Source: a virus. From it: a DNA stretch of 64,000 nucleotides. The DNA is taken from positions 1,023 to 65,022 of the IMG/VR virus record IMGVR_UViG_3300020202_000074; one strand, 5' to 3'. Within the stretch, counting starts at the first letter, position 1. Every line of letters begins with the position of its first letter. Shown piece after piece: positions 1,333 to 30,844 of this stretch. The position numbers and the translations under genes were made by a program. The notes beneath the pieces are model-generated. The model worked only from the letters and a program-made list of their open reading frames with translations, was not told the DNA's origin and did no database searches.

Positions 1333-1954
1333 CATCCTCGACAGCACCGCCAAGGAGCAGTTCGACACCCTTGATCCCACCACTCCCGCCGCGTACATCG
1401 CCGCCAACGCCCAACGAAACTCCGCACCCGACCCTGCCGACGTGTCCAGCAACTCCCTCTCCCCCAGTTCGACAGCGACCCCGGAGGAGGCGGCCAAGTA
1501 TGACACCATCATGCCCATCGACGCGTGCCAAGAGTTCGTCGATCGTGCGATGGCCGTCATTCGACGCCGCGCTGCCACGCCGGGCGACAAGGTCAGCCGC
1601 CCCATGGGCGAACAGAAATGCACGTGCGGCGACCCCTACTGCTCGATGGCCAACATCCTCGGCGGCCTCATTTGCCAGATCATCAACGAGTCGGGCTTCC
1701 CCGAAAACATGCGCCCCCTTCTCCTCCAGGCGATCCACGAGAAAGTGGCCCCCGAGGCTGACAACCACATCAAGGACTTCCTCGCTGCGTTGATGGCCGA
1801 CATCCAAGCGTCCCCTGACAACGACCTCGGCCCCGATATCGACAATCCCGACAATCCCGACAATCCCGACAATCCCGACAACGACGACGACGACGATGAC
1901 GATGATGACGATGAGGGATGCAACGACGCCGACTGCGGTTGCCACCACAACTGA
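1301..1954 (+). CDS. hypothetical protein with (DNP)4/poly-Asp tail and Cys/His terminus
   Basis: SD AAAGGAG before ATG 1301; CTCGDPYC internally; ends GCNDADCGCHHN. Confidence 0.7.
   Translation: MIVPNAQPIRDILDSTAKEQFDTLDPTTPAAYIAANAQRNSAPDPADVSSNSLSPSSTATPEEAAKYDTIMPIDACQEFVDRAMAVIRRRAATPGDKVSRPMGEQKCTCGDPYCSMANILGGLICQIINESGFPENMRPLLLQAIHEKVAPEADNHIKDFLAALMADIQASPDNDLGPDIDNPDNPDNPDNPDNDDDDDDDDDDEGCNDADCGCHHN
1841..1913 (+). repeat. GACAATCCC x4 followed by GAY trinucleotide run
   Basis: direct reading; in frame, encodes DNPDNPDNPDNP then poly-D. Confidence 0.9.
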
Positions 1955-2122
1955 ACCACGATCCTTCACTCACCGTCACCGAAAGGTGGTGGTGGGCCTT
2001 GTACCCCTCAACCCCTAGGGGAGGGACCGTCGCTGGCCGCTCGCTTTGCTCGCGTTCGCGGCCAGCTCCGCACCCCACCACCGAAACCACCAGACAGGGA
2101 AACCCAACAGAAAGGAACGACG

Positions 2123-2476
2123 ATGTTCATTCTTGAGCAAACCGGCATCATCAGCTACACTCCCACCGGTCCCAATCACTGCGGCCAATCCCCCGCCGGC
2201 CCTCGGCAGTGCGGATACGAAATCAAGGTCTTCGCGAGCAGCTTGAACGAGGACGACATGGTCATCGAGCAGGACGAGCTCACGGAGCTGATCCGCAAGA
2301 CCGTCGAGGAGAACCCGTCGACTACGTGCGAGAAGCTCGCCGAAGCCCTTGGCGAGGCTATCTTCCGCAGCGACGCCGCCAATGAAGAAGGTGAGAACAT
2401 CGACGGCGCGTCCGTAACCATCGCCCCCGCCGACGGCCGTCGCGTCACCTTCACCATCGGAGACACCGTCCCATGA
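2123..2476 (+). CDS. possible degenerate T-fold (QueD/PTPS-like) protein
   Basis: SLNEDDMVIEQDELTELI..NPSTTCEKLAEAL..VTI resembles QueD pattern; HxH motif absent. Confidence 0.4.
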   Translation: MFILEQTGIISYTPTGPNHCGQSPAGPRQCGYEIKVFASSLNEDDMVIEQDELTELIRKTVEENPSTTCEKLAEALGEAIFRSDAANEEGENIDGASVTIAPADGRRVTFTIGDTVP

Positions 2477-2551
2477 CCGAGACCCAAGACTATTTCGACC
2501 CCATCGCCGCCGCCCTCGCCACCCTGCACGCCATCGCGAAGGAGTCCCCCC

Positions 2552-3490
2552 ATGGCTGAAAAGAACCCGTATTGGTTTTCAGGCGGCGAGGCGAGGTCAA
2601 TCTTGGACCCCGACATTCGCAAGCAACTCGGAATCAAACTGCACCCGAGCATTGAACTGCTGATGACAGCAAGTGATGAACTTTGCTACGCCATTGAAGC
2701 GGCGTTCTCCGATGAAGGTGTCAAGGATCGCGTTGCCGATGTACGCGCTGCCCTGGTCACGCTCTCCCTCGCCCGCCAAGCCGACGCGGCGACCATGCCG
2801 GCGGATGTGGCGACGCTCGTAGAGAAGTTGGACGACTGGACGCGATCAGACACTTCCCTCTCCTGTCGCAAATACGATTTGCTGCAAGAGGCAATCGCGT
2901 ACATCCGTCGTCCCCTCGCCCCGGCGACCCGACCATCCGCCCCTGCGGGCGATGTGGCGATGGAGATCGCTAATGTCGTGGCCGCGCACATTTGGGGCGA
3001 GTCTGTTGGCGTACCTGGCGAACTTCCAAAGGCAAAGGCGGCTCTCGCCACCCTCATCCGCCCCCACGTCACGGGGGACTGCCCCGAAGCCGACGCAACG
3101 GACTACGCCCACCCCGCATGGTGGCGTGGACATAACTACACCGTAGAAGTTTTCTGCCGAATGGTGAATGACATCATCGACGGCAAGAAGAGTTCCAAGG
3201 GCATATCGGGCGAGCCGTGGGAATCGACCAAACGACGGCTGTTCGCCCTCGCCGCGACCGCGAGCGGGGAGCAGTGGCGGCCGATTGAGACTGCGCCGAA
3301 GGATGGGACGCGAATCCTCGGAACTGTGGTGGGACTGGAGAACTCAACATTGGTTTATTTCTGGAACCGACTCGTCGAAGAATGGCGAGTCCTATTCAGC
3401 AATGGACTATGCACTCCACCAACCCACTTCATGCCACTCCCGCCCGCCCCAGCCACGGCGGAGCAGGGCGAGAAAGGCGGTGGTTCGTGA
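2552..3490 (+). CDS. phage protein with C-terminal DUF551-like domain
   Basis: WRPIETAPKDGT..PTHFMPLPPAP signature; SD AAGGAG. Confidence 0.7.
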   Translation: MAEKNPYWFSGGEARSILDPDIRKQLGIKLHPSIELLMTASDELCYAIEAAFSDEGVKDRVADVRAALVTLSLARQADAATMPADVATLVEKLDDWTRSDTSLSCRKYDLLQEAIAYIRRPLAPATRPSAPAGDVAMEIANVVAAHIWGESVGVPGELPKAKAALATLIRPHVTGDCPEADATDYAHPAWWRGHNYTVEVFCRMVNDIIDGKKSSKGISGEPWESTKRRLFALAATASGEQWRPIETAPKDGTRILGTVVGLENSTLVYFWNRLVEEWRVLFSNGLCTPPTHFMPLPPAPATAEQGEKGGGS

Positions 3491-3816
3491 TAGGTGATCC
3501 GATCAAAGGCATGAAACAGGAGATGGACCACACGTTCGGAGCAGCGGACATCCCTAGGCCTAAGCCCGTCGAGACGATGACAGTCCCCGTGGAGGACATC
3601 GAGCAGGTGCTCTACGACCTCAAGGACGCCGCCTCCCTCCTGCGGCTCATTGAGACGGGCGCTATTGTGGATCGCAGCAAGTTGCCGCCCGGCGTCACCC
3701 TCGCGATGGTCTCGGGCATCGAGGCTCGCCTCAACAAGTCATGGACCGCCCTCGCTGACTACACCTCGTCAACATCCTCGTCGGATGTGGACCCCACCCA
3801 TCAGAACCCCACATAA
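3487..3816 (+). CDS. hypothetical protein
   Basis: GTGA coupling to upstream stop; codon bias. Confidence 0.5.
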   Translation: MIGDPIKGMKQEMDHTFGAADIPRPKPVETMTVPVEDIEQVLYDLKDAASLLRLIETGAIVDRSKLPPGVTLAMVSGIEARLNKSWTALADYTSSTSSSDVDPTHQNPT

Positions 3817-3826
3817 GGATTCCTCC

Positions 3827-4375
3827 ATGCGACGCGTCTACCTCGACATCTCTCAACCCTGCCCCGGCACTCTGTGCAACGTCGGCCACCCCAAGGTGAT
3901 CGGCTGCGCCATGGGTGAAGTCCTCTTCCAGGCCGGCATCCCCCTCGACCTCCTTCGTCGATACGGCACCACTCGCGAGTTGTTTCAAGTGCATCGCGAG
4001 CGACGCAAGCAGCTGCTCCAGTGGCTCGGCATCCAACACTATGTGCCCATGGAATCGTATTCTCACGTGGAGTCCGCGTACGACAGCTTCGTCAAGCTCC
4101 GCGCGATGGACCGCCAAGAGCGACTAATCCACTTGGCGGCGAGACGTGAGTCAGCCCCCACAACGCCGGACTCATGGATCGATCCCGAGCACCATCGCGC
4201 GGAGCTGATCGAGAACGGCCGAAGGATCAATGTGGAGTTCGTCATCGGCATGGGTCCGGACCCCCTAGTTACAGAAGGAGCGCTGTCGTCATGTTCACCA
4301 ACGATGGTCGAATCAATCCTGAGTACCAAGCCCGCCGCAACCAGCCAACCGAGCCCAGTGTTGGCGACTGGGTGA
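3827..4375 (+). CDS. hypothetical protein
   Basis: SD TAAGGA, ATG 3827. Confidence 0.6.
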   Translation: MRRVYLDISQPCPGTLCNVGHPKVIGCAMGEVLFQAGIPLDLLRRYGTTRELFQVHRERRKQLLQWLGIQHYVPMESYSHVESAYDSFVKLRAMDRQERLIHLAARRESAPTTPDSWIDPEHHRAELIENGRRINVEFVIGMGPDPLVTEGALSSCSPTMVESILSTKPAATSQPSPVLATG

Positions 4376-4620
4376 TCAGCCGCATAAACCCCGAGGAGCT
4401 GGTCAAGTACGACGAAGACCCCAACAAGTTCTGGCGCGTCGCACAGGTCCAATCGTCTCGGCAGATGTACTACATCTACTTCAAATCCTCGGTGTCTTGG
4501 TTCGACAACGCCGTGGACGCCCTTGCGCACGCTGTAGGCCGAGCGTCGCTCGTCGACAACATCTACATCCGGGCGGACCTCGCTAAGATGACCATCCCTC
4601 CATTCGGACACCACACATGA
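4291..4620 (+). CDS. hypothetical protein
   Basis: SD AAGGAG, ATG 4291; overlaps previous gene by 85 nt. Confidence 0.6.
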   Translation: MFTNDGRINPEYQARRNQPTEPSVGDWVISRINPEELVKYDEDPNKFWRVAQVQSSRQMYYIYFKSSVSWFDNAVDALAHAVGRASLVDNIYIRADLAKMTIPPFGHHT

Positions 4621-5108
4621 CTCCAGCACCTGAGAAGAAGCCTAGGGGCGGTCCGTCCCGCAAGGAACGCAGGGCCCAGCTCGCCAACCTGCCCAAGCCC
4701 ACGAAGGCCAAGGTCCGTAAGGCCAAGCGGCAGATGGAGGACATCAAGAAGGCCTCCAGCCACCGATACTCGAAGACCGCCAACAAGAACTTCAAGAAAG
4801 CCCTAAAGCAGCGGGCCCAAGAGCTCGTTGAACAGGGCGTACAGGACGCTAGGGAGGGGCGGTTGGGGTCCGGCCCGCCGTCCGCTGCGCTGGCGGGCCT
4901 CCCCCCTCCACCACACGGGTCAATCGACGAAGGAGAAGACCATGACGTATCAGTTCCCGGATCTGGACAACTTGAAGAGCCTCACGAATCGGCAGCTGAC
5001 GCAGGTCTGGCGGGACACGGGAGCCGAGAAGCTGTTTGTCCGACAGTATTACGGGTGGGAGAGCGAGGAAGCGCTCAGCCGCCTCCGCCCGCTGAACGAG
5101 GTGATTGA
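4617..5108 (+). CDS. Lys/Arg-rich basic protein
   Basis: ATGA coupling; very basic N-terminal half; C-terminus runs into next gene. Confidence 0.55.
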   Translation: MTPAPEKKPRGGPSRKERRAQLANLPKPTKAKVRKAKRQMEDIKKASSHRYSKTANKNFKKALKQRAQELVEQGVQDAREGRLGSGPPSAALAGLPPPPHGSIDEGEDHDVSVPGSGQLEEPHESAADAGLAGHGSREAVCPTVLRVGERGSAQPPPPAERGD

Positions 5109-5199
5109 CGCCGTCCTCCGTGAGCAGGAGGCTCGTCGCCTCAGCGACCTGATGCGACGCGGCGCCCGCCGTTCACAACCTCAACACGTAAGTAGCTAA
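4942..5199 (+). CDS. hypothetical protein
   Basis: SD AAGGAG, ATG 4942 (MTYQFPDL). Confidence 0.65.
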   Translation: MTYQFPDLDNLKSLTNRQLTQVWRDTGAEKLFVRQYYGWESEEALSRLRPLNEVIDAVLREQEARRLSDLMRRGARRSQPQHVSS

Positions 5200-5228
5200 C
5201 CCCCTTCCTTCCCCAAAGGAACCCTCCG

Positions 5229-5546
5229 ATGTCTGCCTTCCACCTTATAGCCGCAGCTGCGGCAATCGCGTCGCTCCCGATCAAACCCACTACGGCTACC
5301 TCGTCCTCCAAGGAGTTGGGCGTGTTCTCGCCGCCCAAGCCCATCGACCTCCCGCCCGCCGTGCAGAACTACGAACCCAATTACTGGGTAGACCTCGCAT
5401 CGCAGGCCATGGCCAAGGGCATCTATGACGCGGCGTACTGGTACTGGATGACCGTGGCCGAGCTCGCCATCGGCTCTCGGCCCGTGGCCGACGCCCTCCG
5501 AGCCGCGTCCCACTGCCTGGAGCGGTGGCAGTCCACTCAACGATAA
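5229..5546 (+). CDS. hypothetical protein
   Basis: SD AAAGGA; helical C-terminus. Confidence 0.6.
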   Translation: MSAFHLIAAAAAIASLPIKPTTATSSSKELGVFSPPKPIDLPPAVQNYEPNYWVDLASQAMAKGIYDAAYWYWMTVAELAIGSRPVADALRAASHCLERWQSTQR

Positions 5547-5597
5547 TCGTCTCTGTTCCCCCTCTTTCCCCTATTTCCATTTCTAAAGGAGTATGTC

Positions 5598-6068
5598 ATG
5601 TCCGGTCTATTTTCACAAATCAGTGGCCAAGGCGCCTTCGCGAACGATCGCATCAACAGCCGCGTCAAGCCCCACGAACTCCAACCGTTGATCCTCCGCA
5701 GCGACGACGACGGCGCCGAGGTGATCGACATCATCGGCCTTCCCGTCCGCCCCGTGCAATTCAAGAACAAGAAGAACGAGGTGTCGGGCATCATGTCGCT
5801 GGTGGACTGCACCGACTGGGACGCCCAGGCGAGCAAGGTCCGCTCGGTCAGCGCGACGCTGAAGAACGCCGCCACCGGCGAAGAGACTCCGGTGCTCGTG
5901 GAGATCAAGGTTCTCAAGCTTGGCTATCTCCCCGGCATGGATCCCAAGGCCACCGGAGGAGCGTCGAATCCCGCGATCGCCGTTCCCGCCAAGCAGACCA
6001 GCGACAAATCCGCCGCTGCCGCTGAGATGTCCCCCGACGAGGCAAAGGCCCTCGGCGTCACCTCCTAA
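5598..6068 (+). CDS. hypothetical beta-rich protein, possibly ssDNA-binding
   Basis: SD AAAGGAG; alternating hydrophobic strands, flexible tail. Confidence 0.6.
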   Translation: MSGLFSQISGQGAFANDRINSRVKPHELQPLILRSDDDGAEVIDIIGLPVRPVQFKNKKNEVSGIMSLVDCTDWDAQASKVRSVSATLKNAATGEETPVLVEIKVLKLGYLPGMDPKATGGASNPAIAVPAKQTSDKSAAAAEMSPDEAKALGVTS

Positions 6069-6083
6069 CCAAAGGAGCGTCCA

Positions 6084-6788
6084 ATGTTCGCGTACGAAAC
6101 AGGGGAAACCCCCCAGCTTGGCGACTTCGTCGAGTTCTGGGACGGCCCAAAGAGGTACGTGGGTAAACGGGGTACCGTTACTCGTGTTGACACCGACAAC
6201 GCCACAATAAGGTGGACTGAGGGCGCCGCTGGATGGATGCCCAGTCGGTTCCGTCTCATCGGCCGCAAGGAGTCTGCTGTGCCCAACGAATACACATACG
6301 CATCGGGTGAAGCGCCCATCATGCGGGACGTCGTCGAGTACATCGGCGACGCAGACACCTGGAAGGGAAAGCGAGGCACCGTCATCGGGATAGGCATAGG
6401 CAGCTCCCTAACGAGGATTCGCTGGTCAGAGGGCGGGGGTTTGTGGAATGCCTCCTGGTTCAAGCTCGTCGAGCGTGGGGGCCAACCCTTGAAAGTCGAC
6501 CCCTATCTCAACACCCAAGTCATTCCTTACCCAACGCTGGAGAACACCACCATGAACGTCATGCCATTCCACGTCCGGATCTGGTCCGTGAATCGCGATC
6601 CCCAAACCCTCGCAGTCACCGACGCCACGATGCAGTTCGACGGCATCGTCATCGCCAAGACGCCCAAGGAGGCCGCCAACCTGAAGGCCACCGAGATCAT
6701 CCGCAACAACCAGGATCTCACCCTCGACGACCTCCGCAGCCACATCACTTCGCTCGGCAATGACGGGCACCTCAACGGCGGCCACTAA
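6084..6788 (+). CDS. protein with two tandem SH3/KOW-like repeats
   Basis: internal repeat Y..GE.P...D.VE..GKRGTV..IRW.EG. Confidence 0.65.
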   Translation: MFAYETGETPQLGDFVEFWDGPKRYVGKRGTVTRVDTDNATIRWTEGAAGWMPSRFRLIGRKESAVPNEYTYASGEAPIMRDVVEYIGDADTWKGKRGTVIGIGIGSSLTRIRWSEGGGLWNASWFKLVERGGQPLKVDPYLNTQVIPYPTLENTTMNVMPFHVRIWSVNRDPQTLAVTDATMQFDGIVIAKTPKEAANLKATEIIRNNQDLTLDDLRSHITSLGNDGHLNGGH

Positions 6789-6791
6789 GCA

Positions 6792-6895
6792 AGTCTCCAC
6801 TCTGCGCGAGCCCTCTTGGCCGAAAGGCCCTGGGGGTTTATTGATCGGTTAGCTGCACTTCCACACTTCCAAGCCAGGCACAGAGTAAGGAGACT
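6792..6895 (+). promoter_or_regulatory. candidate cis-regulatory RNA sequestering the SD of the gene at 6900
   Basis: AGTCTCC-ACTCTG (6792-6804) pairs with CAGAGT-aa-GGAGACT (6881-6895); internal GGCC-GAAA-GGCC hairpin. Confidence 0.5.
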
Positions 6896-6899
6896 CGTG

Positions 6900-7544
6900 A
6901 TGTCGATCATTCGACAGCACCGCACGGTTGGCACGTCGCTGTTTTACAGCGACGAGGCGTATTACGACAACAACGGGTTCAGTACTCAAGAGGCCTATTA
7001 CAGCGGAGTGGAGGACGACTACGACTTCTACACCCACCAGCTCGAAGGTGAGCTCTCGTACGAATCCATCGAAGTGGATCCCTCTCCAGTGGGGAATAAC
7101 TACGAGTTGAAGGCCTCCTTCGAGTACCGCGAGCCCCAACGCCTGCATGCGTTCCGTGGACACGTGGCGGACCGCATCGACAAGGACGGCCACTTCTGCG
7201 GCGAGATATGGGGTCCTATCCCCACCACCATTGATGTGCTGAGGAGGCACCGTCGCCAGCGACCCCGCATGGATTACGAGGCGTATCTGACGGCCCGCGC
7301 CGACGCCCTGTTGATCGAAGCGAAGGCCCCTCTCTTCATCACGACGCCCGACAGTCCGCCGAACATTTACGCGACGGAGGCCAAGCCCTCCACCTACCAT
7401 CCGGAACCTTGGCGAGCCTTGAAGGAGCAGATCCGCCTTCGCCTGGGCATGATCGACGCAACCAAACGACCATCGCCCATCCCCGAAGAGGACCTCACCT
7501 TCCAGGCCGCCCAGGCCCTCCGACACTCCCCAAGGAGCCGCTAA
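6900..7544 (+). CDS. hypothetical protein
   Basis: SD AAGGAG, ATG 6900. Confidence 0.65.
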   Translation: MSIIRQHRTVGTSLFYSDEAYYDNNGFSTQEAYYSGVEDDYDFYTHQLEGELSYESIEVDPSPVGNNYELKASFEYREPQRLHAFRGHVADRIDKDGHFCGEIWGPIPTTIDVLRRHRRQRPRMDYEAYLTARADALLIEAKAPLFITTPDSPPNIYATEAKPSTYHPEPWRALKEQIRLRLGMIDATKRPSPIPEEDLTFQAAQALRHSPRSR

Positions 7545-7900
7545 TGGCCAAGAAGACAGGCAAGAAGACCCGCAAGAAGTCACCCCCCAAGAAGGCCGTG
7601 TTCGTCGTCCCCTCCAGCAAACAGGGCAAGTACCCTCAGCTCGAACTGGAGTTCGATGCGAAAAATGAGAAGGGGAAAGATGGTAGTTCGGTCTACCTCT
7701 ATGGAGACGAGATCAGATCTCGGCAGAGTGACAGTAGTGATACCGCTTGGCCCATCAAGGGCCTCTCAACCGAGCAGGGCTACCTCGTGGGCTTCGCCTC
7801 CTGCGGCACCGGTGCCATCGTGGCCACCAACGTCGCACAGGTGAACCAGCTCATCGACTGGCTCAAGCTCTGCATCTCTGAGGGCGCCATTCGCCCCTAA
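7544..7900 (+). CDS. hypothetical protein with basic N-terminus
   Basis: TAATG coupling, SD AAGGAG. Confidence 0.65.
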   Translation: MAKKTGKKTRKKSPPKKAVFVVPSSKQGKYPQLELEFDAKNEKGKDGSSVYLYGDEIRSRQSDSSDTAWPIKGLSTEQGYLVGFASCGTGAIVATNVAQVNQLIDWLKLCISEGAIRP

Positions 7901-7915
7901 CCCCACGCCTATTCG

Positions 7916-7933
7916 GTAACTCGCGCGAGTTAC
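7916..7933. promoter_or_regulatory. perfect 18-bp palindrome upstream of Ubl operon
   Basis: GTAACTCGCGCGAGTTAC equals its reverse complement. Confidence 0.55.
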
Positions 7934-7984
7934 TCTTCCCTATGGCACGCACTGATGCGTGCAGCTCTTTGAAAGGAGCACTTC

Positions 7985-8245
7985 ATGAAGGTTACGTTCA
8001 TCAGCAACAGTGGCGACGGTACCCCCCAGACCATCGAGGTTCCGGACGACACCACCCTCGACATCGTTCTTCGTCAGAAGGGCGTCAACGAGGGCCAGGT
8101 CGTCATCTCCCACAACCGCCAGCGCGTCCCCGCCGGCAGCGCCGCCCAGACCCGCCTCCAGGACGGTGACCGCGTCGCGGTGACCCCGACGAACATGAAG
8201 GGAGCCATTGGCTCCGAGGGCGCTGAGATCCGTCTCGCCGCCTAA
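7985..8245 (+). CDS. ubiquitin-like (ThiS/MoaD beta-grasp) protein with C-terminal extension
   Basis: MKVTFI..IEVPDDTTL..RLQDGDRVAVTPTNMKG; SD AAAGGAG; neighbours E2/JAB/E1. Confidence 0.85.
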   Translation: MKVTFISNSGDGTPQTIEVPDDTTLDIVLRQKGVNEGQVVISHNRQRVPAGSAAQTRLQDGDRVAVTPTNMKGAIGSEGAEIRLAA

Positions 8246-8262
8246 TAGTCTGCGGTTAGGCA

Positions 8263-8374
8263 GCCAACGTAGCTCAAGAAGGTAGTACCTGGCCCGGTCG
8301 CTCCGGTCAGCGAATCCCCTGGAAGAGCGTCGGACAATAATCCGGTGATGGAGGTTCGAGTCCTCCCGTTGGCT
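8263..8374 (+). ncRNA. tRNA-like element: 49-nt D loop, 6-nt anticodon loop
   Basis: GCCAACG/CGTTGGC acceptor, GCTC/GAGC D stem, GGAGG-TTCGAGT-CCTCC T arm, loop CAATAA. Confidence 0.8.
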
Positions 8375-8424
8375 TTGTACGTTACGTTCCTACTTCCACC
8401 CCCTCGCTCTAGAAGGAGCACCAT

Positions 8425-9732
8425 ATGGAGTACCCTGACAGCCTAAAGCTGGAGGTCCTGACTCCGGAGAAAGCCCTGGCCCTCGCGGGCCGCCTCGTCG
8501 CCAAGATCCTCCCCAAACCAGCCCCCAACACCCCAGACACCCCTCAGGGTCTCCCTCGCGTCGTGGAGCACAAGACCACCGCGAAGATGAAGCGGAACAT
8601 CAAGGCGATCGAGACCGCCCTCGCCAAGGGCGACCTCCAGAAGTTCAACGCGATGGTGATGGAGTTGCGGGCCCAGATGAACACCGTAGAGTGGGCGAAG
8701 CTCGTCACCAACTGGACGGCCAAGAAGACCATCGGGACCTCCCCAGTGCGGGATGTGGCCGCCAGCCTCGTCGCCGTCGCCCGCGCGTATCCGACGCACA
8801 TCCTCAGCGGCCCCATCTACTGGCGCAAGGACCGCAAACCCGACTCGGTCAACGGTCGAGGCGCCATCGCATTCCAGATGTGGAGCCTCCTGGTCGACAC
8901 CCCTCACATCTTCCTCTACGACATGGACGACCAGGAGTTCGATCTCGGCCCGATGCGCCTCCATTACAACCTGAAGTACCTGCTCGCCCATTTCCCACAC
9001 TGGGATCCAGGTTACGCTATCAACACGGTGCGGGTGGAGCCCCTGGATCCCTACTGGCCGACTCACAAAGCAGACGTCAACCTCGCCGTTGGCGAAATCA
9101 CCACCGACCAACCCAGCCACCTCGCCCGGACCCACCCCTTCGCCGCCACTCACAACCTGGAGTGCCACCCGCACATCCGGGGCGGTCGACCCTGCTTAGG
9201 GACTGCGCTGCCCGCTCTGGCCAGGGAGCTCCACAGCTTGATGTTCTGGGAAGCCACCGACATCCTCATCGGCTACCTTCAGTCCTACAACCCCGCCGAC
9301 GTCTTCCGCTCCCTTGAGATGTGGAACGTCCCCGCCTGCGCCAACTGCGGCTACCTCGGCAAGAAGCCCGACGACCGCACCAAGTGCGACATCAGCGGCG
9401 GCGAGACGTGCGCCAACTGCCGTTACCGCGAGAACTACGTCGACCTCGACGGAAAGGCCCACGTCGTGACGGTGAACGGCACCCGGTACGGCCAACACTC
9501 CCTCCGCGAATGGGCCGCGAAGACGTACGACGAGCCCATCAAAGCACGCAGGGCCGCAGAGGCCGCTGCGATGTCGGTCGGCCTCTCCCCCAACTCCCTT
9601 CCCACTGCGTCCCCCGTAACGGAGCCCTCCGATGGCCCGAAGAAGAAAACGCGGAAAAAAGCCCGCACCCCTACCCCGTCCGATTACGCCCCCTTCGAGT
9701 ACGTCGAACCGTCCAGGGACGAGCCGTTCTAA
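8425..9732 (+). CDS. prokaryotic E2-like protein with C-terminal Cys cluster
   Basis: HPHIRGGRPCLG (Cys257) then L.SYNP.D; CANC..C..CANC; operon context. Confidence 0.7.
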   Translation: MEYPDSLKLEVLTPEKALALAGRLVAKILPKPAPNTPDTPQGLPRVVEHKTTAKMKRNIKAIETALAKGDLQKFNAMVMELRAQMNTVEWAKLVTNWTAKKTIGTSPVRDVAASLVAVARAYPTHILSGPIYWRKDRKPDSVNGRGAIAFQMWSLLVDTPHIFLYDMDDQEFDLGPMRLHYNLKYLLAHFPHWDPGYAINTVRVEPLDPYWPTHKADVNLAVGEITTDQPSHLARTHPFAATHNLECHPHIRGGRPCLGTALPALARELHSLMFWEATDILIGYLQSYNPADVFRSLEMWNVPACANCGYLGKKPDDRTKCDISGGETCANCRYRENYVDLDGKAHVVTVNGTRYGQHSLREWAAKTYDEPIKARRAAEAAAMSVGLSPNSLPTASPVTEPSDGPKKKTRKKARTPTPSDYAPFEYVEPSRDEPF

Positions 9733-9763
9733 GGGATACTCCGCTAAAGGTAAAGGCAACAAG

Positions 9764-10789
9764 ATGACACACGGATACAGCTACAACAGCCATGGCAGCT
9801 CCGGCTACCAGGTCAAGTCCTTCAGTCCCCCACCCCCTCCACAGCTGAGTTTCTCCGTCTACGCGTGGATGAAACTCCAGTGGTTCTGCCACGCGGCCGA
9901 CACCGAGGTCGGAGCGTTCGGCATCACCGACCCGGAGAATCCCCTCCACGTCGTGGACATGATTTTCCCACCGCAGAAGTGCACCACGGTGTCGGTCGAT
10001 TACGACGACCAGGGACTCATCGACTTCGCCATGGACTGCGCGGAAGCCAACATCGCCCCCGCCAACAGCATGCGGGTATGGATCCACACCCACCCCGGCA
10101 ACAGCCCCACGCCCTCCTCCACCGATGAGGAGACGCTCGCCACTGTGTACAAGGACTCGTCCTGGGCGGTGATGTTCATCCTCGCACGTGGCGGCGCCAC
10201 CTACTGCCGCCTGCGGGCGAACCCCGCCGACAAGGTGTCCCTCTCGTCGGAGATCAAGGTCGTCCTGCCCACCATCTTCGACTACATGAAGTACACCGAG
10301 GTCCCTCTCTCTCACGTCGCCACCTGGGAGAAGGAGCTCAAGGACAACGTCTCCAAACCCGCCGCCCGCGTCTATTCATACACCAGCAGCACTCCTTCCA
10401 ACTACACGCCTGTCGGCATTGCGGGTCACCGAGTCTTGAAGAAGGGCTACGACGACCTGCCCGCGTACAAGGCATGGATGGCGGATCGAGACTTCACGGA
10501 TCCCTTCCCCAAGTATCTGTACATGCACTACCCCGAGCTTTATTGGGTGTACTTCGAGCCTCCCGACTGGTGCAAGAACGATTACACCACTGGCCGACCG
10601 GAGCCCGCCACCTCAGGCATCATCGTCGCGTCTGAGGGTCCCGCCGAGCGGGTCAAGGCCCGCAAGCTGCTGTCCGCCGCCGAGAAGGCCCAAGACCTCC
10701 TCGATGACGACACCCAAGACACCCTCTACGGAAGCTCCGCCGCTGCTGACGACAACGAAATGGCCCGCTTCATGGAGGGCCGCCTCTAG
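9764..10789 (+). CDS. JAB/MPN+ (JAMM) metallopeptidase
   Basis: TEVG..WIHTHPGNSPTPSSTD = E..HxH..S..D motif; ATG 9764 after AAAGG. Confidence 0.85.
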   Translation: MTHGYSYNSHGSSGYQVKSFSPPPPPQLSFSVYAWMKLQWFCHAADTEVGAFGITDPENPLHVVDMIFPPQKCTTVSVDYDDQGLIDFAMDCAEANIAPANSMRVWIHTHPGNSPTPSSTDEETLATVYKDSSWAVMFILARGGATYCRLRANPADKVSLSSEIKVVLPTIFDYMKYTEVPLSHVATWEKELKDNVSKPAARVYSYTSSTPSNYTPVGIAGHRVLKKGYDDLPAYKAWMADRDFTDPFPKYLYMHYPELYWVYFEPPDWCKNDYTTGRPEPATSGIIVASEGPAERVKARKLLSAAEKAQDLLDDDTQDTLYGSSAAADDNEMARFMEGRL

Positions 10790-10820
10790 CCACGACGGGC
10801 GTACGCTGTGGAAGGACACA

Positions 10821-10964
10821 GGGCGGAAAAGCTATCCGCAAGCGGGCAGATGCAAGAGGCTGTAAGAGCACCGGCTCTTGGTGCCGGAGCGCTCTGAGCT
10901 GTACGTAGCTGGCCGGAAGGCCCCGATCAGAAGTCCCGAGCCGGAATCAAGCCCGGCCCGCCCA
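10821..10964 (+). ncRNA. possible structured RNA with acceptor/T-arm-like closure
   Basis: GGGCGG/CCGCCC-A plus GCCGG/CCGGC stem; internal hairpins incl. GGCC-GGAA-GGCC. Confidence 0.3.
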
Positions 10965-11047
10965 CCCGCACACCCCCCGCCAACCTGCGGCCAATACTTG
11001 CTGCTCCCCTCCACGGAGGGGTGTGGCCAATGCGAGGCGGGGGATTC

Positions 11048-11151
11048 GCCGGAGTAGCTCAGTGAAGGAGCAACGATTGATCCCCGTTGTGCCTTCCGGT
11101 AGAGCGTCGGAAGAACTCCGAAGGTCGCAGGTTCGAGTCCTGCCTCCGGCA
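11048..11151 (+). ncRNA. tRNA-like element: 34-nt hairpin in D loop, 5-nt anticodon loop
   Basis: GCCGGAG/CTCCGGC-A, GCTC/GAGC, TCGGA-AGAAC-TCCGA, GCAGG-TTCGAGT-CCTGC. Confidence 0.85.
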
Positions 11152-11193
11152 TTCAGTACCAGACCCCCTATCTAAATCTAAAGGAACCCGATC

Positions 11194-12006
11194 ATGCCCC
11201 GACAGACTGAAGAAGAAACGAACCTCCGCCAGAAGCGATTCCGTGACCTCGGCGAGAAGATGAGTCAGGCCTCCTGCGTCGTCATTGGCTGCGGCGCCAT
11301 CGGCCGCCAGGTGGCCATGCAGCTCGCCGTCATGGGCGTCGCCACCCTCGACCTCTACGACCCTGGCGACATCGAGGAAGTGAACCTCGGCACCCAGGGT
11401 TGGAGCCCCCTCGACGAGGGCAAGCCCAAGGCCCAAGTCCTCGCGGAAGAGATCGAGGATGTGAACCCCGACGTCATCGTCGGCACCGTCATTGGCACCT
11501 TCAAGGTGAGCCCCACCGCGCAGAACGTAGCGGATACGTACGTATTCATGTGCGTGGACTCGATGGAAGCTCGCACCGAAATCTTCCAGGCCATCAAGAA
11601 GGTGGCGGTGGAGGGAGCACCAGCCCACCTTTTCATCGACGCGCGGATGACGATGGAAGCCGCTCGGATTTTGGTGGTGGACAACCTCGCGGCCGACGAG
11701 TATTATCAATCCACCCTATTTGCCGACCGCGACGCGCTGGCTGACGGATGCACGACGAAATCGACCTTCTACTGCGCCAGCCTCGCGGCGTCGCTGATGG
11801 TGACGCAGTTCGCCAAGCACCTTCGGGGGATCGAGACCGACCGCGACATGACCATCGACCTTCGATCTATGGAACTGTTCCCCACCACCATCGACACGGC
11901 GCCCACAGCGGTGTCGCACACGTGCTCGGACAGCAGCCCGCCGGCGCTGGAGACCGCTGCGGTCGATGCCGTCCTGCGTAGCGTGACCGTCTGCCCGATG
12001 CCCTAG
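11194..12006 (+). CDS. ThiF/E1-like activating enzyme
   Basis: VIGCGAIGRQVA..DPGDIEEVNLGTQ..CVDSMEAR..IDARM..GCTTKST. Confidence 0.9.
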   Translation: MPRQTEEETNLRQKRFRDLGEKMSQASCVVIGCGAIGRQVAMQLAVMGVATLDLYDPGDIEEVNLGTQGWSPLDEGKPKAQVLAEEIEDVNPDVIVGTVIGTFKVSPTAQNVADTYVFMCVDSMEARTEIFQAIKKVAVEGAPAHLFIDARMTMEAARILVVDNLAADEYYQSTLFADRDALADGCTTKSTFYCASLAASLMVTQFAKHLRGIETDRDMTIDLRSMELFPTTIDTAPTAVSHTCSDSSPPALETAAVDAVLRSVTVCPMP

Positions 12007-15766: not shown

Positions 15767-16324
15767 ATGACAGCTGGTCATTCTCGGCTGGCAGTCTCCA
15801 AGGAACCAATGGTTCCTAGAATAAACGACCGACTTGGAGACATGCACACCATGAACCTTTCCTGGGACGTATCCGGCATCCCAAACCACCGCACCAAGTG
15901 CTTCTACAGGGCGAAGCCTGGTGAGCTAGACAACGTGCAGACCGCTGGCGAATCCATTCCGTTGGAGGATGGCCACGGTCGACACCTGATGAAGCTTCGA
16001 CCGAAGGTCGCCGCCCTCATATGGGCTAGCGCCCAGGTCGGCCTCTCGCACGTCAGTTTCGAGAACATCGAGGAGTGGCTCTATCGGCTCGACGCCTTGT
16101 TCGACGCGGGCAACGCCTTCATGTTTATGAATACCCCCGAGGGACGGGTGCCCGTCCGGCTCAATCGAAGGGACCTAGAGCTGTATGTCGGCCTACGAAC
16201 CTCCGCCAAACCCATCCCCCATCAGCTCTTCGACTCCATCATCCGAGGCCTCCGGATGGCACGACAGGCTGACGCCCTTCTCGACCTCACCAGCCACAGC
16301 GACGACGACGGCCTGGACGTTTAG
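15767..16324 (+). CDS. hypothetical protein
   Basis: ORF with codon bias; start uncertain. Confidence 0.6.
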   Translation: MTAGHSRLAVSKEPMVPRINDRLGDMHTMNLSWDVSGIPNHRTKCFYRAKPGELDNVQTAGESIPLEDGHGRHLMKLRPKVAALIWASAQVGLSHVSFENIEEWLYRLDALFDAGNAFMFMNTPEGRVPVRLNRRDLELYVGLRTSAKPIPHQLFDSIIRGLRMARQADALLDLTSHSDDDGLDV

Positions 16325-30758: not shown

Positions 30759-30834
30759 GGTGGTTATGGCACAATGGCGAGTGCGCCGGAGAGATAGAGA
30801 TCCGGAGGTCCGGGTTCGAGTCCCGGTAGCCACC
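30759..30834 (+). ncRNA. tRNA-His-like body with a 10-nt purine anticodon loop
   Basis: G-1:C73, GTGGTTA/TAGCCAC, GCAC/GTGC, CCGGA-GAGATAGAGA-TCCGG, CCGGG-TTCGAGT-CCCGG. Confidence 0.85.
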
Positions 30835-30844
30835 CCGCCCACCT

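What the first reader, a model, noticed from the sequence alone, without database searches (positions are those of the whole stretch)
7985..12006. Complete ubiquitin-like conjugation cassette (Ubl, E2-like, JAB, E1) carried by a phage
Seen: four co-oriented genes with a beta-grasp Ubl, an E2-like HPH..C motif plus Cys cluster, a JAMM HxH..S..D peptidase and a ThiF/E1 GxGxxG enzyme with a GCT candidate catalytic Cys, set among early genes of a phage. Established: bacterial E1-E2-Ubl-DUB operons (Bil, CBASS Cap2/Cap3, PRTRC-type cassettes) perform protein conjugation, mostly as host defence or on plasmids/ICEs. Inference: here the phage owns the machinery and may tag host or defence proteins, or its own virion proteins. 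No sulfur-transfer partners (ThiG, MoaE, cysteine desulfurase) are visible, which favours conjugation over cofactor synthesis.
Basis: partly seen in the sequence, partly recalled or inferred. Interest (0 to 1): 0.9.

Follow-up and report, generated by a model that had tools for sequence, protein, structure and literature searches.

The report
Phage-borne ubiquitin-like protein-tagging cassette
A complete tailed-phage genome carries a four-gene kit (small tag protein, E2-type carrier, trimming protease, activating enzyme) that looks like a working ubiquitin-style protein-tagging system. The same kit turns out to be a mobile module widespread in integrated elements of Planctomycetota, built around an E2 family that current catalogues do not recognise.

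Summary
Four co-oriented genes at 7985-12006 encode:
- a ThiS-type Ubl (Pfam 3.5e-6);
- a 435-aa protein whose core is predicted to have a UBC/E2 fold, with invariant HPH-x6-Cys257;
- a JAMM/JAB peptidase with a complete E...HxH...S..D motif;
- a minimal ThiF-type E1 (Pfam 1.9e-23) with invariant Cys186.

The record is a 65-kb phage genome (terminase, tail fibre, family-A DNA polymerase; no integrase). The cassette lies in its replication arm.

The same four genes in the same order occur in 8 other phage-like metagenome contigs. They also occur in at least 60 loci of Planctomycetota genomes, often beside an integrase and a tRNA-Ser gene, with 1-6 copies per genome. Only the four genes are shared, so they form one mobile module.

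The tag almost always ends x-Gly-Ala plus a short tail, so it is made as a precursor that needs trimming, as in Type II Bil.

The phage genome has no sulfur-transfer partner. I read it as a Ubl conjugation cascade (about 0.7). Target and biological role are unknown.

It is not a member of the Bil, Bub, CBASS Cap2/3 or PRTRC families by their models, so it is a new variant of a known kind.

This scan has already noted phage-borne Ubl cassettes on other DNA many times. I found no paper describing this one.

The parts
7985..8245 (+). Ubl precursor, 86 aa, ThiS-like beta-grasp. The predicted mature form is residues 1-73 (7985-8203), ending at invariant Gly73. Ala74 and a 12-residue tail are predicted to be removed.
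   Evidence: Pfam ThiS 3.5e-6, above cut-off. G73 and A74 are invariant in 4 syntenic homologues. G73 is invariant in 8. 64 of 69 homologous ORFs end x-G-A with tails of mostly 1-13 aa.
8306..8374 (+). Weak tRNA-like element in the Ubl/E2 gap. It is interposed and is not part of the conserved module.
   Evidence: Rfam tRNA 22.3 bits, E 0.017, below gathering score. Other loci have tightly packed or overlapping genes here.
8425..9732 (+). E2-like protein, 435 aa. It has an N-terminal helical hairpin (about aa 14-100), a UBC-like core (about aa 103-300, bases 8731-9324), HPH at 9166-9174, candidate catalytic Cys257 at 9193-9195, a remnant Zn knuckle C305...C332 (9337-9420) and a disordered tail.
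   Evidence: 129 homologous 50%-identity clusters, nearly all with HPH[VI]x5-6C. Invariant G175, H248, P249, H250, C257, G259 and C305. Models have pLDDT 74-75. VIA-align against 48,161 PDB chains: of the 35 hits with Z>=5, nearly all are E2/UEV/RWD. AFDB cluster hits at E 1e-10 to 5e-6 are auto-named RING-type or UBC core domain proteins. Zn-finger cysteines are mostly lost in the window copy.
9764..10789 (+). JAMM/JAB metallopeptidase, 341 aa from ATG 9764 (the ORF is open from 9632). The catalytic motif HTHPGNSPTPSSTD lies at 10085-10126 and the upstream Glu at 9905-9907. A C-terminal extension of about 150 aa has unknown function.
   Evidence: Pfam Prok-JAB 3.9e-4, PADLOC JAB 1.9e-5, NCBIfam Cap3 0.0049. 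Invariant E92, H152, H154, S162 and D165. The same motif is present in L007 and L010-L012. Start site.
11048..11151 (+). tRNA-like element of 104 nt with an insert of about 30 nt, lying in the JAB/E1 gap. It is interposed and is not part of the conserved module.
   Evidence: Rfam tRNA 51 bits, E 5.5e-8. ARAGORN does not call it. Its 3' half is 86% identical to a tRNA-Gln of Vibrio phage VPT02.
11194..12006 (+). Minimal E1 (ThiF-type adenylating enzyme), 270 aa. GxGxxG lies at 11287-11304 and candidate catalytic Cys186 at 11749-11751. It has no rhodanese domain, no CxxC zinc site and no second (inactive) adenylation domain.
   Evidence: Pfam ThiF 1.9e-23. Below cut-off for every NCBIfam ThiF/MoeB/PRTRC/UbaA model. 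Invariant R15, G32, G34, G37, D56, N64, Q68, K79, D122, R127, R151 and C186.

Best explanation
The four genes form a self-contained ubiquitin-like conjugation module. Proposed steps, all inferred from homology and none shown biochemically:

1. The 86-aa tag is made as a precursor.
2. The JAMM peptidase cuts after invariant Gly73, removing Ala74 and the tail.
3. A dimer of the minimal ThiF-type E1 adenylates Gly73 with ATP and probably takes the tag as a thioester on invariant Cys186.
4. The tag moves to invariant Cys257 of the UBC-fold E2-like protein. The preceding HPH motif plays the part of the eukaryotic E2 HPN motif.
5. The E2-like protein hands the tag to lysines of target proteins. In most family members its C-terminal multi-zinc-finger array (largely lost in this phage's copy) would act as a built-in adaptor of RING, B-box or zinc-ribbon type.
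6. The JAMM peptidase can also remove the tag again.

The module is a mobile unit. It sits beside integrases in integrated elements of Planctomycetota and in the replication arm of several phages, including this one, which looks virulent because it has no integrase.

The biological role is not determined. My rough split is:
- conflict between mobile elements or with the host defence, such as tagging proteins of competing phages as Bil does: about 0.4;
- tagging host proteins for takeover or counter-defence: about 0.3;
- modifying the phage's own proteins: about 0.15.
For: - Component identities: ThiS, JAB, ThiF; E2 fold.
- Every proposed catalytic residue is invariant across the family: Ubl G73; E1 GxGxxG, K79, D122 and C186; E2 HPH and C257; JAB E, HxH, S and D.
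- Synteny is strict. The order Ubl-E2L-JAB-ThiF is found in 8 phage-like contigs and in 60 of 80 Planctomycetota loci, the remaining 20 being cut by contig ends.
- Only these four genes are shared between loci.
- The Ubl nearly always carries at least one residue after the Gly, which explains the obligatory peptidase. This parallels Type II Bil, where the DUB cuts after the conserved Gly and the next residue is Ala (bioRxiv 10.1101/2023.09.26.559546, read).
- The phage genome has no ThiG, MoaE, PP-loop ATPase or rhodanese.
- Mobile-element context: integrases in 7 of 18 chromosomal loci, tRNA-Ser genes next to them, AbiE and Wadjet-type neighbours, 1-6 copies per genome, patchy in 12 of 301 sampled Planctomycetota genomes.
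Against: - There is no biochemistry. Thioesters, conjugates and targets are all inferred.
- The E2 assignment rests on a predicted structure of middling confidence (pLDDT 75, best Z 7.3, which the tool notes is in the common range) plus a motif.
- No HMM of any E2 family matches. hhalign to two Prok-E2_D proteins aligns the Cys but is not significant (E 0.07-0.13).
- Foldseek against the PDB found only zinc-finger fragments.
- The E1 lacks the Arg of the usual NLxRQ motif (it reads NLGTQ).
- The window's E2-like protein has lost most of the zinc-finger array.
- Two tRNA-like inserts split the operon, so this particular copy could be decaying.
- Bub systems show that E1/E2 look-alikes may use oxyesters rather than thioesters (PMC11601596), so the chemistry cannot be assumed.
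Confidence: 0.7

Rival explanations
1. E2-independent tagging. The E1 alone activates the Ubl and passes it to targets, as archaeal SAMP/UbaA does. The 435-aa protein would then be a zinc-finger adaptor, substrate or regulator rather than a thioester carrier.
For: No E2 HMM matches the protein. The structural Z-scores are middling. The complex prediction gave no support for an E1-Ubl-E2 assembly, which is a no-answer rather than evidence. NCBIfam shows a weak SAMP-activating E1 (UbaA) match, 2e-9, far below cut-off.
Against: HPH-x6-C-x-G is invariant in 89 sequences, while the zinc fingers are dispensable: they are lost in the window and L003 copies. That is the opposite of what a zinc-finger adaptor would show. 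The structural hit list is almost purely E2/UEV/RWD. The nearest language-model clusters are all E2 families.
Confidence: 0.12
2. Sulfur-carrier system. The Ubl is converted to a thiocarboxylate for making a thio-cofactor or thiolated tRNA (as in TtuB/TtuC/TtuD, QbsE/QbsC/QbsD or CysO/MoeZ/Mec). The neighbouring tRNA-like elements would be a hint of the substrate.
For: The best profile hits of the Ubl and E1 are ThiS and ThiF. JAB-processed sulfur carriers with C-terminal extensions are known (Iyer et al. 2006, PMC1779556). tRNA-like elements lie inside this copy of the cassette.
Against: All ThiS and ThiF equivalog scores are far below cut-off. The E1 has no rhodanese domain. The phage genome has no ThiG, MoaE, PP-loop ATPase or rhodanese. 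An invariant-Cys E2-fold protein is an obligatory part of the module. The tRNA-like elements are absent from the other cassettes.
Confidence: 0.07
3. This particular copy is an eroding passenger. The module family is functional elsewhere, but in this phage it is losing function.
For: The window's E2-like protein kept 5 of about 20 zinc cysteines and has two disordered inserts. The operon is interrupted by two tRNA-like elements. Identity to relatives is low: E2L 20-35%, ThiF about 40%.
Against: All four reading frames are intact and every catalytic residue is retained. The related phage contig L003 shows the same zinc-finger loss with an intact core, which suggests a stable variant rather than decay.
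Confidence: 0.1

Closest known systems
Bil (BilABCD, Type I and II; operon types 6d and CEHH/6C), anti-phage Ubl conjugation (bioRxiv 10.1101/2023.09.04.556158 and 10.1101/2023.09.26.559546)
   Same: Four separate genes in the same order: Ubl, E2, JAB, E1. The Ubl is often made with a short tail after a conserved Gly that the JAB removes, and in E. aridi BilA the residue after the cut is Ala, as here. Two relatives (L018, L034) even have a tandem di-Ubl, like the ISG15-like Type I BilA. The neighbourhood is mobile or defence-like.
   Different: The Bil E1 is a large enzyme with inactive and active adenylation domains, a CYS domain and a zinc site; here the E1 is a 213-270 aa single-domain ThiF-like protein with no zinc site. 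The Bil E2 lacks the His before the Cys and has a conserved His after it; here HPH precedes the Cys and no downstream His is conserved. No PADLOC or NCBIfam Bil-type model matches. Here the module is carried by phages and integrated elements.
Eukaryotic-type UBC/E2 enzymes (Pfam UQ_con)
   Same: Predicted fold (helix, four-strand meander, active-site loop, two helices) matches E2S, Ubc8, Ube2K, UbcH10 and Ubc13 with 113-121 aligned residues. There is an HPH-x6-C-L-G motif where classical E2s have HPN followed by the catalytic Cys (the classical motif is from my own knowledge).
   Different: No sequence-profile match. There are two long inserts in the window protein. An N-terminal helical hairpin and a C-terminal zinc-finger array are fused to the core. 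The spacing between HPH and Cys appears one residue shorter than in UbcH5 (own knowledge).
Prok-E2_D (PF14460) and Bub/6E operons (PMC11601596)
   Same: The nearest named clusters by language-model features are Prok-E2_D clusters, mostly viral. BubB appears among the structural hits (9eav_D, Z 4.9). Prok-E2_D proteins have a similar '...G.VCLGD' active-site stretch.
   Different: The Pfam HMM does not hit any of 9 tested members, even at E 10, nor genomes that carry the family. Bub enzymes lack catalytic cysteines and work through oxyesters, with a JAB-E1 or peptidase-E1 fusion; here Cys is invariant in both E1 and E2 and the JAB is a separate gene.
PRTRC cassette of plasmids and ICEs (NCBIfam TIGR03735-03742)
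   Same: A mobile-element-borne cassette with a small ThiF-type E1, a JAB, a Ubl and an E2-like protein.
   Different: PRTRC_ThiF scores 35.8 bits against a cut-off of 144.75. No other PRTRC model hits the Ubl, E2-like or JAB proteins. No ParB-related gene is part of the shared module.
CBASS Cap2/Cap3
   Same: The best PADLOC matches of the E1 are Cap2 'E1-E2' models (1.6e-12) and those of the JAB are Cap3 'JAB' models (1.9e-5).
   Different: Cap2 is an E2-E1 fusion that conjugates a CD-NTase and has no Ubl. Here the E1 and E2 are separate, a ThiS-like Ubl is present and there is no CD-NTase.

Membership tests
ThiF/MoeB/E1 superfamily (Pfam PF00899) | Match to the ThiF adenylation-domain profile above the gathering score | tested here: met
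   83.3 bits against 28.1, E 1.9e-23; 83.2 bits in the genome search.
ThiF/MoeB/E1 superfamily (Pfam PF00899) | ATP-binding GxGxxG, conserved Lys and Mg-binding Asp | tested here: met
   G32, G34, G37, K79 and D122 are invariant in 25 homologues. The Arg of NLxRQ is replaced (NLGTQ).
ThiS sulfur carrier / thiazole ThiF equivalogs (NCBIfam TIGR01683, TIGR02356) | Score above the equivalog cut-off | tested here: not met
   ThiS 27 bits against 37.45; ThiF 56.8 bits against 275.25. ThiG is absent from the genome.
JAMM/JAB metallopeptidases (Pfam Prok-JAB) | E ... HxH ... S..D metal-binding and catalytic motif | tested here: met
   E92, H152, H154, S162 and D165 are invariant. The motif is found in 5 further loci. 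The HMM score of 20.7 bits is below the 25-bit cut-off, so membership rests on the motif plus sub-threshold matches.
UBC/E2 superfold | UBC fold: N-terminal helix, four-strand antiparallel meander, active-site loop, C-terminal helices | tested here: met
   Predicted model only. Secondary-structure order. The structural search returns E2/UEV/RWD almost exclusively (Z up to 7.3, 113-127 aligned residues).
UBC/E2 superfold | Catalytic Cys in the loop after the HPN-type motif | tested here: inconclusive
   HPH-x6-C is invariant and lies between the meander and the first C-terminal helix in the model. No residue-level superposition on a solved E2 could be obtained.
UBC/E2 superfold | Sequence-profile match to an E2 family (UQ_con, Prok-E2_A-E, E2-CBASS) | tested here: not met
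   No Pfam hit at E<=10 for 9 members or at E<=0.01 for 89 members. hhalign to Prok-E2_D ORFs gives E 0.07-0.13.
Bil (BilABCD) | E1 with inactive and active adenylation domains, a CYS domain and a zinc site | tested here: not met
   The E1 is 213-270 aa, single-domain, with only one invariant Cys. Bil features are as described in 10.1101/2023.09.26.559546.
Bil (BilABCD) | E2 with a conserved Cys and a conserved His downstream of it (CEHH-type), lacking the upstream His | tested here: not met
   The invariant residues are H248, P249 and H250 upstream of C257. There is no invariant His downstream.
Bil (BilABCD) | Four separate genes Ubl-E2-JAB-E1, with the Ubl precursor trimmed after a conserved Gly | tested here: met
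   Gene order. x-G-A plus a tail in 64 of 69 Ubls. The cleavage itself is not testable here.
PRTRC cassette | Matches above cut-off to the PRTRC ThiF and PRTRC proteins A-F models | tested here: not met
   PRTRC_ThiF 35.8 bits against 144.75; no other PRTRC model was hit.
Bub (6E) pathway | E1 and E2 lacking catalytic Cys (oxyester chemistry), with a peptidase-E1 fusion | tested here: not met
   Cys is invariant in both E1 and E2. The JAB is a separate gene. Bub features are from PMC11601596.
RING / binuclear treble-clef zinc finger (C-terminal array of the E2-like family) | Eight-ligand cross-brace binding two zinc ions | tested here: inconclusive
   The family profile weakly matches the TFIIH p44 RING-like domain (0.021) and the MID1 B-box (0.056). 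AFDB relatives are auto-named 'RING-type domain-containing'. The window copy keeps only 5 cysteines.

The most novel reading that the evidence does not exclude
A virulent phage uses its own ubiquitin-like cascade offensively. Early in infection it tags host proteins (defence or housekeeping) or proteins of competing elements, using an E2 lineage that keeps the eukaryote-like HPH/Cys active site. If so, virus-driven 'ubiquitination' of host proteins, known from eukaryotic viruses, would also exist in bacteria. The Planctomycetota mobile-element pool would hold a large, unstudied reservoir of E2 enzymes, some with built-in RING-like fingers (E2-E3 hybrids).
Probability: 0.25. Interest if true: 0.85.

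Novelty: new variant of a known kind. Interest (0 to 1): 0.62.

Why it matters
Bacterial Ubl conjugation systems characterised so far (Bil, Bub, CBASS Cap2) are host-encoded anti-phage defences. Here the same logic is carried by phages and integrated elements as a compact four-gene mobile module.

Three features stand out:
- a minimal E1;
- an E2 family absent from Pfam, NCBIfam, PADLOC and PHROGs, with 129 clusters at 50% identity;
- an E2 that keeps a eukaryote-like HPH-Cys active site and, in most members, a fused multi-zinc-finger array.

The module is abundant in Planctomycetota: at least 379 loci in species-representative genomes, and up to 6 copies per genome.

It gives a small, easily cloned system in which to ask what a virus-owned tagging machine targets. 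It also adds a lineage to the question of how E2 and E3 functions arose.

Tried and rejected
- **Complex prediction.** A three-chain job (E1 1-230, Ubl 1-73, E2 core 103-340) returned 'no answer', score 0.01. I do not count it as evidence either way.
- **Whole-protein fold searches.** Searches with the 435-aa model were dominated by the N-terminal helical hairpin or by zinc-finger fragments. Only the isolated domain gave the E2 signal. Foldseek against the PDB with the domain still found only FYVE, PHD or RING bits at E about 1.
- **Word-based homologue search.** For the E2-like protein it found only the query itself.
- **Pattern scans.** Scans of IMG/VR with the E2-like protein, the ThiF and a 10-sequence core alignment found nothing. 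Two alignments were too variable to scan with. A single E2-like protein found nothing in genome contigs.
- **Isolated phages.** tblastn of the E2-like protein against 50,697 deposited phage genomes gave no match.
- **Flavobacterium FpV4-type phages.** They have a related ThiF (31% identity) behind a weak JAB-like gene and a 420-aa unknown. The latter could not be linked to the E2-like family (hhalign E 0.27).
- **Literature.** Five text searches found no paper describing a phage-borne Ubl-E2-JAB-E1 cassette or this E2 family. Burroughs et al. 2011 on prokaryotic RING fingers is not held, so I could not check whether it covers the Planctomycetota operon.
- **Atlas fold search.** Not available.
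- **Careful ThiF tree.** It did not finish. Only the quick tree was read, and only for the coarse statement that the window's E1 lies outside the main Planctomycetota clade.

Full report
**1. What is there**

The window is bases 1023-65022 of a 65,474-bp IMG/VR virus record that CheckV rates 100% complete. It is a tailed phage:
- a terminase large subunit (PHROG 38, 1.2e-46) and a tail-fibre protein (4.6e-24) lie on the minus-strand half;
- a family-A DNA polymerase and a PD-(D/E)XK nuclease lie on the plus-strand half.

No tyrosine integrase or serine recombinase is found anywhere in the record, so the phage looks virulent.

The finding lies in the plus-strand replication arm. The third gene more probably starts at ATG 9764, which has an AAAGG ribosome-binding site and removes the 100-base overlap.

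**2. The four proteins**

*Ubl.* It matches Pfam ThiS above the gathering score (3.5e-6) but is well below the NCBIfam ThiS equivalog cut-off.

*E1.* It matches Pfam ThiF at 1.9e-23. It is below cut-off for every named ThiF, MoeB, UbaA, TcdA or PRTRC model. There is no rhodanese domain and no CxxC zinc site.

*Peptidase.* It matches JAB profiles weakly (Pfam 3.9e-4, PADLOC 1.9e-5, Cap3 0.0049). It carries the full JAMM signature, invariant in its syntenic homologues: E92, H152-x-H154, S162 and D165.

*435-aa protein.* It has no match in Pfam, NCBIfam, PADLOC or PHROGs. An exhaustive HMMER search found 129 clusters of relatives. The similarity centres on residues about 235-335, and almost every relative reads HPH[VI]-x5-6-C. 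In an 89-sequence alignment G175, H248, P249, H250, C257, G259 and C305 are invariant.

AlphaFold2 on that alignment gives an N-terminal helical hairpin, then helix, beta-meander, loop (HPH...C) and two helices, followed by a small zinc-binding region.

The isolated domain (residues 103-340, pLDDT 75) was aligned to 48,161 PDB chains without prefilter:
- The 35 hits with Z>=5 are almost all E2 enzymes or their UEV/RWD cousins (E2S 7.3, Ubc8 7.2, Ube2K 7.0, UbcH10 7.0, Ubc13 6.6 and others).
- The bacterial E2 BubB also appears, at Z 4.9.
- Each Z is only middling; the purity of the list is what carries weight.

Two independent pointers agree:
- Foldseek against AlphaFold-DB clusters finds cellular relatives at E 1e-10 to 5e-6 whose automatic names are 'RING-type domain-containing' and 'UBC core domain-containing'.
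- The nearest named clusters by language-model features are all E2 families: Prok-E2_D (mostly viral), UQ_con, UFC1 and E2-CBASS (a lead only).

Sequence-profile evidence for E2 membership is lacking.

Most family members carry about 20 conserved cysteines in CxxC pairs after the core. This array weakly resembles RING-like, B-box or FYVE fingers. The window's copy keeps only C305, C308, C321, C329 and C332. The related phage contig L003 has lost the array altogether, while both keep the HPH-Cys core.

**3. The cassette is a conserved mobile module**

Looking up contigs that encode the nearest ThiF and E2-like relatives gave eight further loci with the same gene order. All are in phage-like surroundings:
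- L003: 64-kb contig with UDG and a family-A polymerase; it shares two flanking genes with the window;
- L010: RusA and ERF;
- L011: RNA ligase, MazG and PNKP;
- L012: terminase;
- L004: excisionase-like HTH and an integrase;
- L002: AbiEi/AbiEii directly downstream.

A scan of one genome per prokaryotic species with the ThiF alignment returned at least 379 relatives. The best 80 are nearly all from Planctomycetota: Gemmataceae, Phycisphaerae, Planctomycetaceae, Pirellulales and Tepidisphaerales. Profiles of the four proteins show that 60 of these 80 loci hold all four genes in the order Ubl-E2L-JAB-ThiF. The other 20 are cut by contig ends.

By BLAST, the window's four proteins find 62, 41, 81 and 88 loci respectively, and none of its other neighbours finds more than one. 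The unit of inheritance is therefore exactly these four genes.

In chromosomes the module behaves like mobile-element cargo:
- it sits next to tyrosine integrases (7 of 18 loci examined), with tRNA-Ser genes just beyond them in four cases;
- other neighbours include serine recombinases, HerA/TraG-like and AAA ATPases, AbiEii, a Wadjet-type DUF2397/2398 pair, a reverse transcriptase and an IS21 helper;
- genomes that have it carry 1-6 copies;
- only 12 of 301 evenly sampled Planctomycetota genomes have it (not all candidates were scored, so this is a lower bound).

In a quick ThiF tree the chromosomal copies form one clade in which Phycisphaerae and Planctomycetia are intermixed. The window and the lytic-looking contigs L003, L010 and L011 lie outside that clade (quick tree, midpoint root, long branches, so only this coarse reading is used). 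The host of the window's phage is probably a planctomycete. This is an inference from this distribution and the 62% G+C content.

**4. How it most likely works**

The tag's beta-grasp domain ends in an invariant Gly followed by Ala in 64 of 69 homologues. After the Gly come 1-13 further residues in nearly all, and 13 in the window. The tag is therefore a precursor, which explains why a peptidase is an obligatory member of the module. Type II Bil behaves the same way: its JAB cuts after the conserved Gly, and the next residue in the E. aridi protein is Ala (10.1101/2023.09.26.559546).

From the families involved I infer the usual relay:
1. JAB trimming of the precursor;
2. adenylation of Gly73 by a dimeric ThiF-type E1;
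3. thioester on E1 Cys186;
4. transfer to E2 Cys257 (HPH playing the part of HPN);
5. isopeptide bond to target lysines, and reversal by the JAB.

None of these steps is shown.

Sulfur-carrier chemistry is the classical alternative for ThiS/ThiF/JAB trios (Iyer et al. 2006, PMC1779556). Four observations argue against it:
- the E2-fold protein with an invariant Cys is obligatory;
- the E1 has no rhodanese domain;
- ThiG, MoaE, PP-loop ATPase and rhodanese are absent from the phage genome;
- the ThiS and ThiF equivalog scores are sub-threshold.

The tRNA-like elements in the two intergenic gaps of this copy recall the tRNA-thiolation role of TtuB and Urm1. They are absent from all other cassettes, so I treat them as insertions.

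**5. Biological role**

The role is open. For a defence or exclusion role speak the Bil-like architecture, the position next to integrases at the ends of integrated elements (where prophage defence cargo usually sits), and neighbours such as AbiE and Wadjet-type genes. For a takeover or counter-defence role speaks the presence in the early arm of phages that have their own polymerase and no integrase, such as this one. I cannot separate these readings with sequence data.

**6. Comparison with known systems**

It works like Bil: separate Ubl, E2, JAB and E1 genes in the same order, with precursor trimming. Two relatives even have a tandem di-Ubl. It is not a Bil member: the E1 architecture and the E2 active-site pattern both differ, and no Bil-type model matches.

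It is also not:
- PRTRC (35.8 against 144.75 bits on the only model hit);
- Bub (Cys is retained in both enzymes and the JAB is separate);
- CBASS Cap2/3 (no fusion and no CD-NTase), although Cap2 and Cap3 models are the best PADLOC hits for the E1 and the JAB.

The E2-like protein is not recognised by the Prok-E2_D HMM.

**7. Novelty**

My text searches found no description of a phage-borne Ubl-E2-JAB-E1 cassette or of this E2 family. One possibly relevant paper on prokaryotic RING fingers could not be read. A preprint on Asgard viruses reports viral E1 homologues only (10.1101/2021.07.29.454249).

Within this scan, phage-borne Ubl cassettes of several kinds have been noted many times on other DNA, so the general phenomenon is not new to the project.

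What this window adds:
- a defined four-gene module with an uncatalogued HPH-Cys E2 family;
- its wide spread in Planctomycetota mobile elements;
- a zinc-finger-less variant in virulent-looking phages.

I class it as a new variant of a known kind, with interest 0.62.

Noticed in passing
window 11048-11151 and 8306-8374: Two tRNA-like elements occupy the two intergenic gaps of the cassette. The first scores 51 bits on Rfam tRNA, is 104 nt long (an insert of about 30 nt in the D region) and is missed by ARAGORN. The second is weak (22 bits, E 0.017). Its 3' half at 11098-11147 is 86% identical to a tRNA-Gln of Vibrio phage VPT02. No other cassette examined has such inserts.
   Followed up: partly
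window 30760-30836: A tRNA that Rfam scores at 52.7 bits, but for which ARAGORN reports an undetermined identity with a four-base 'atag' anticodon.
   Followed up: no
L018:2245-2769 and L034:5190-5690: In two Planctomycetota loci the tag gene encodes two tandem beta-grasp domains (each about 90-95 bits), an ISG15-like di-Ubl within the same module.
   Followed up: partly
L032 (contig binned as Thermoplasmata archaeon), 1661-9654: An expanded version of the module with three E2-like and two Ubl genes upstream of one JAB and one ThiF. The archaeal label may be a binning error, since its ThiF nests among Planctomycetota sequences.
   Followed up: no
G004 (Gemmatales MAG, 5.8 Mb) and G228: Six separate copies of the E2-like gene in one genome. 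Two pairs lie 12 kb and 24 kb apart on opposite strands.
   Followed up: no
L008 (Flavobacterium phage FpV4, NC_041872.1) 2599-5669: The gene annotated 'thiamine biosynthesis protein ThiF' in FpV4-like phages (31% identical to the window's E1) follows a weak JAB-like gene (HxH...SGTD motif) and a 420-aa unknown. This may be an analogous, unrecognised module in cultured phages. A related ThiF also occurs in Xanthomonas jumbo phage PhiXhv-12.
   Followed up: partly
L002:7826-9310: An AbiEi/AbiEii toxin-antitoxin pair lies directly downstream of the ThiF gene in a phage-like contig. AbiEii and a DUF2397/DUF2398 (Wadjet-type) pair also appear next to chromosomal copies.
   Followed up: no
window 6816-7544 and 15767-16324: These two flanking genes have homologues in contig L003 (39% and 37.5% identity), which also has a family-A polymerase downstream. 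L003 is therefore a distant relative of this phage, with the cassette at the same place.
   Followed up: no
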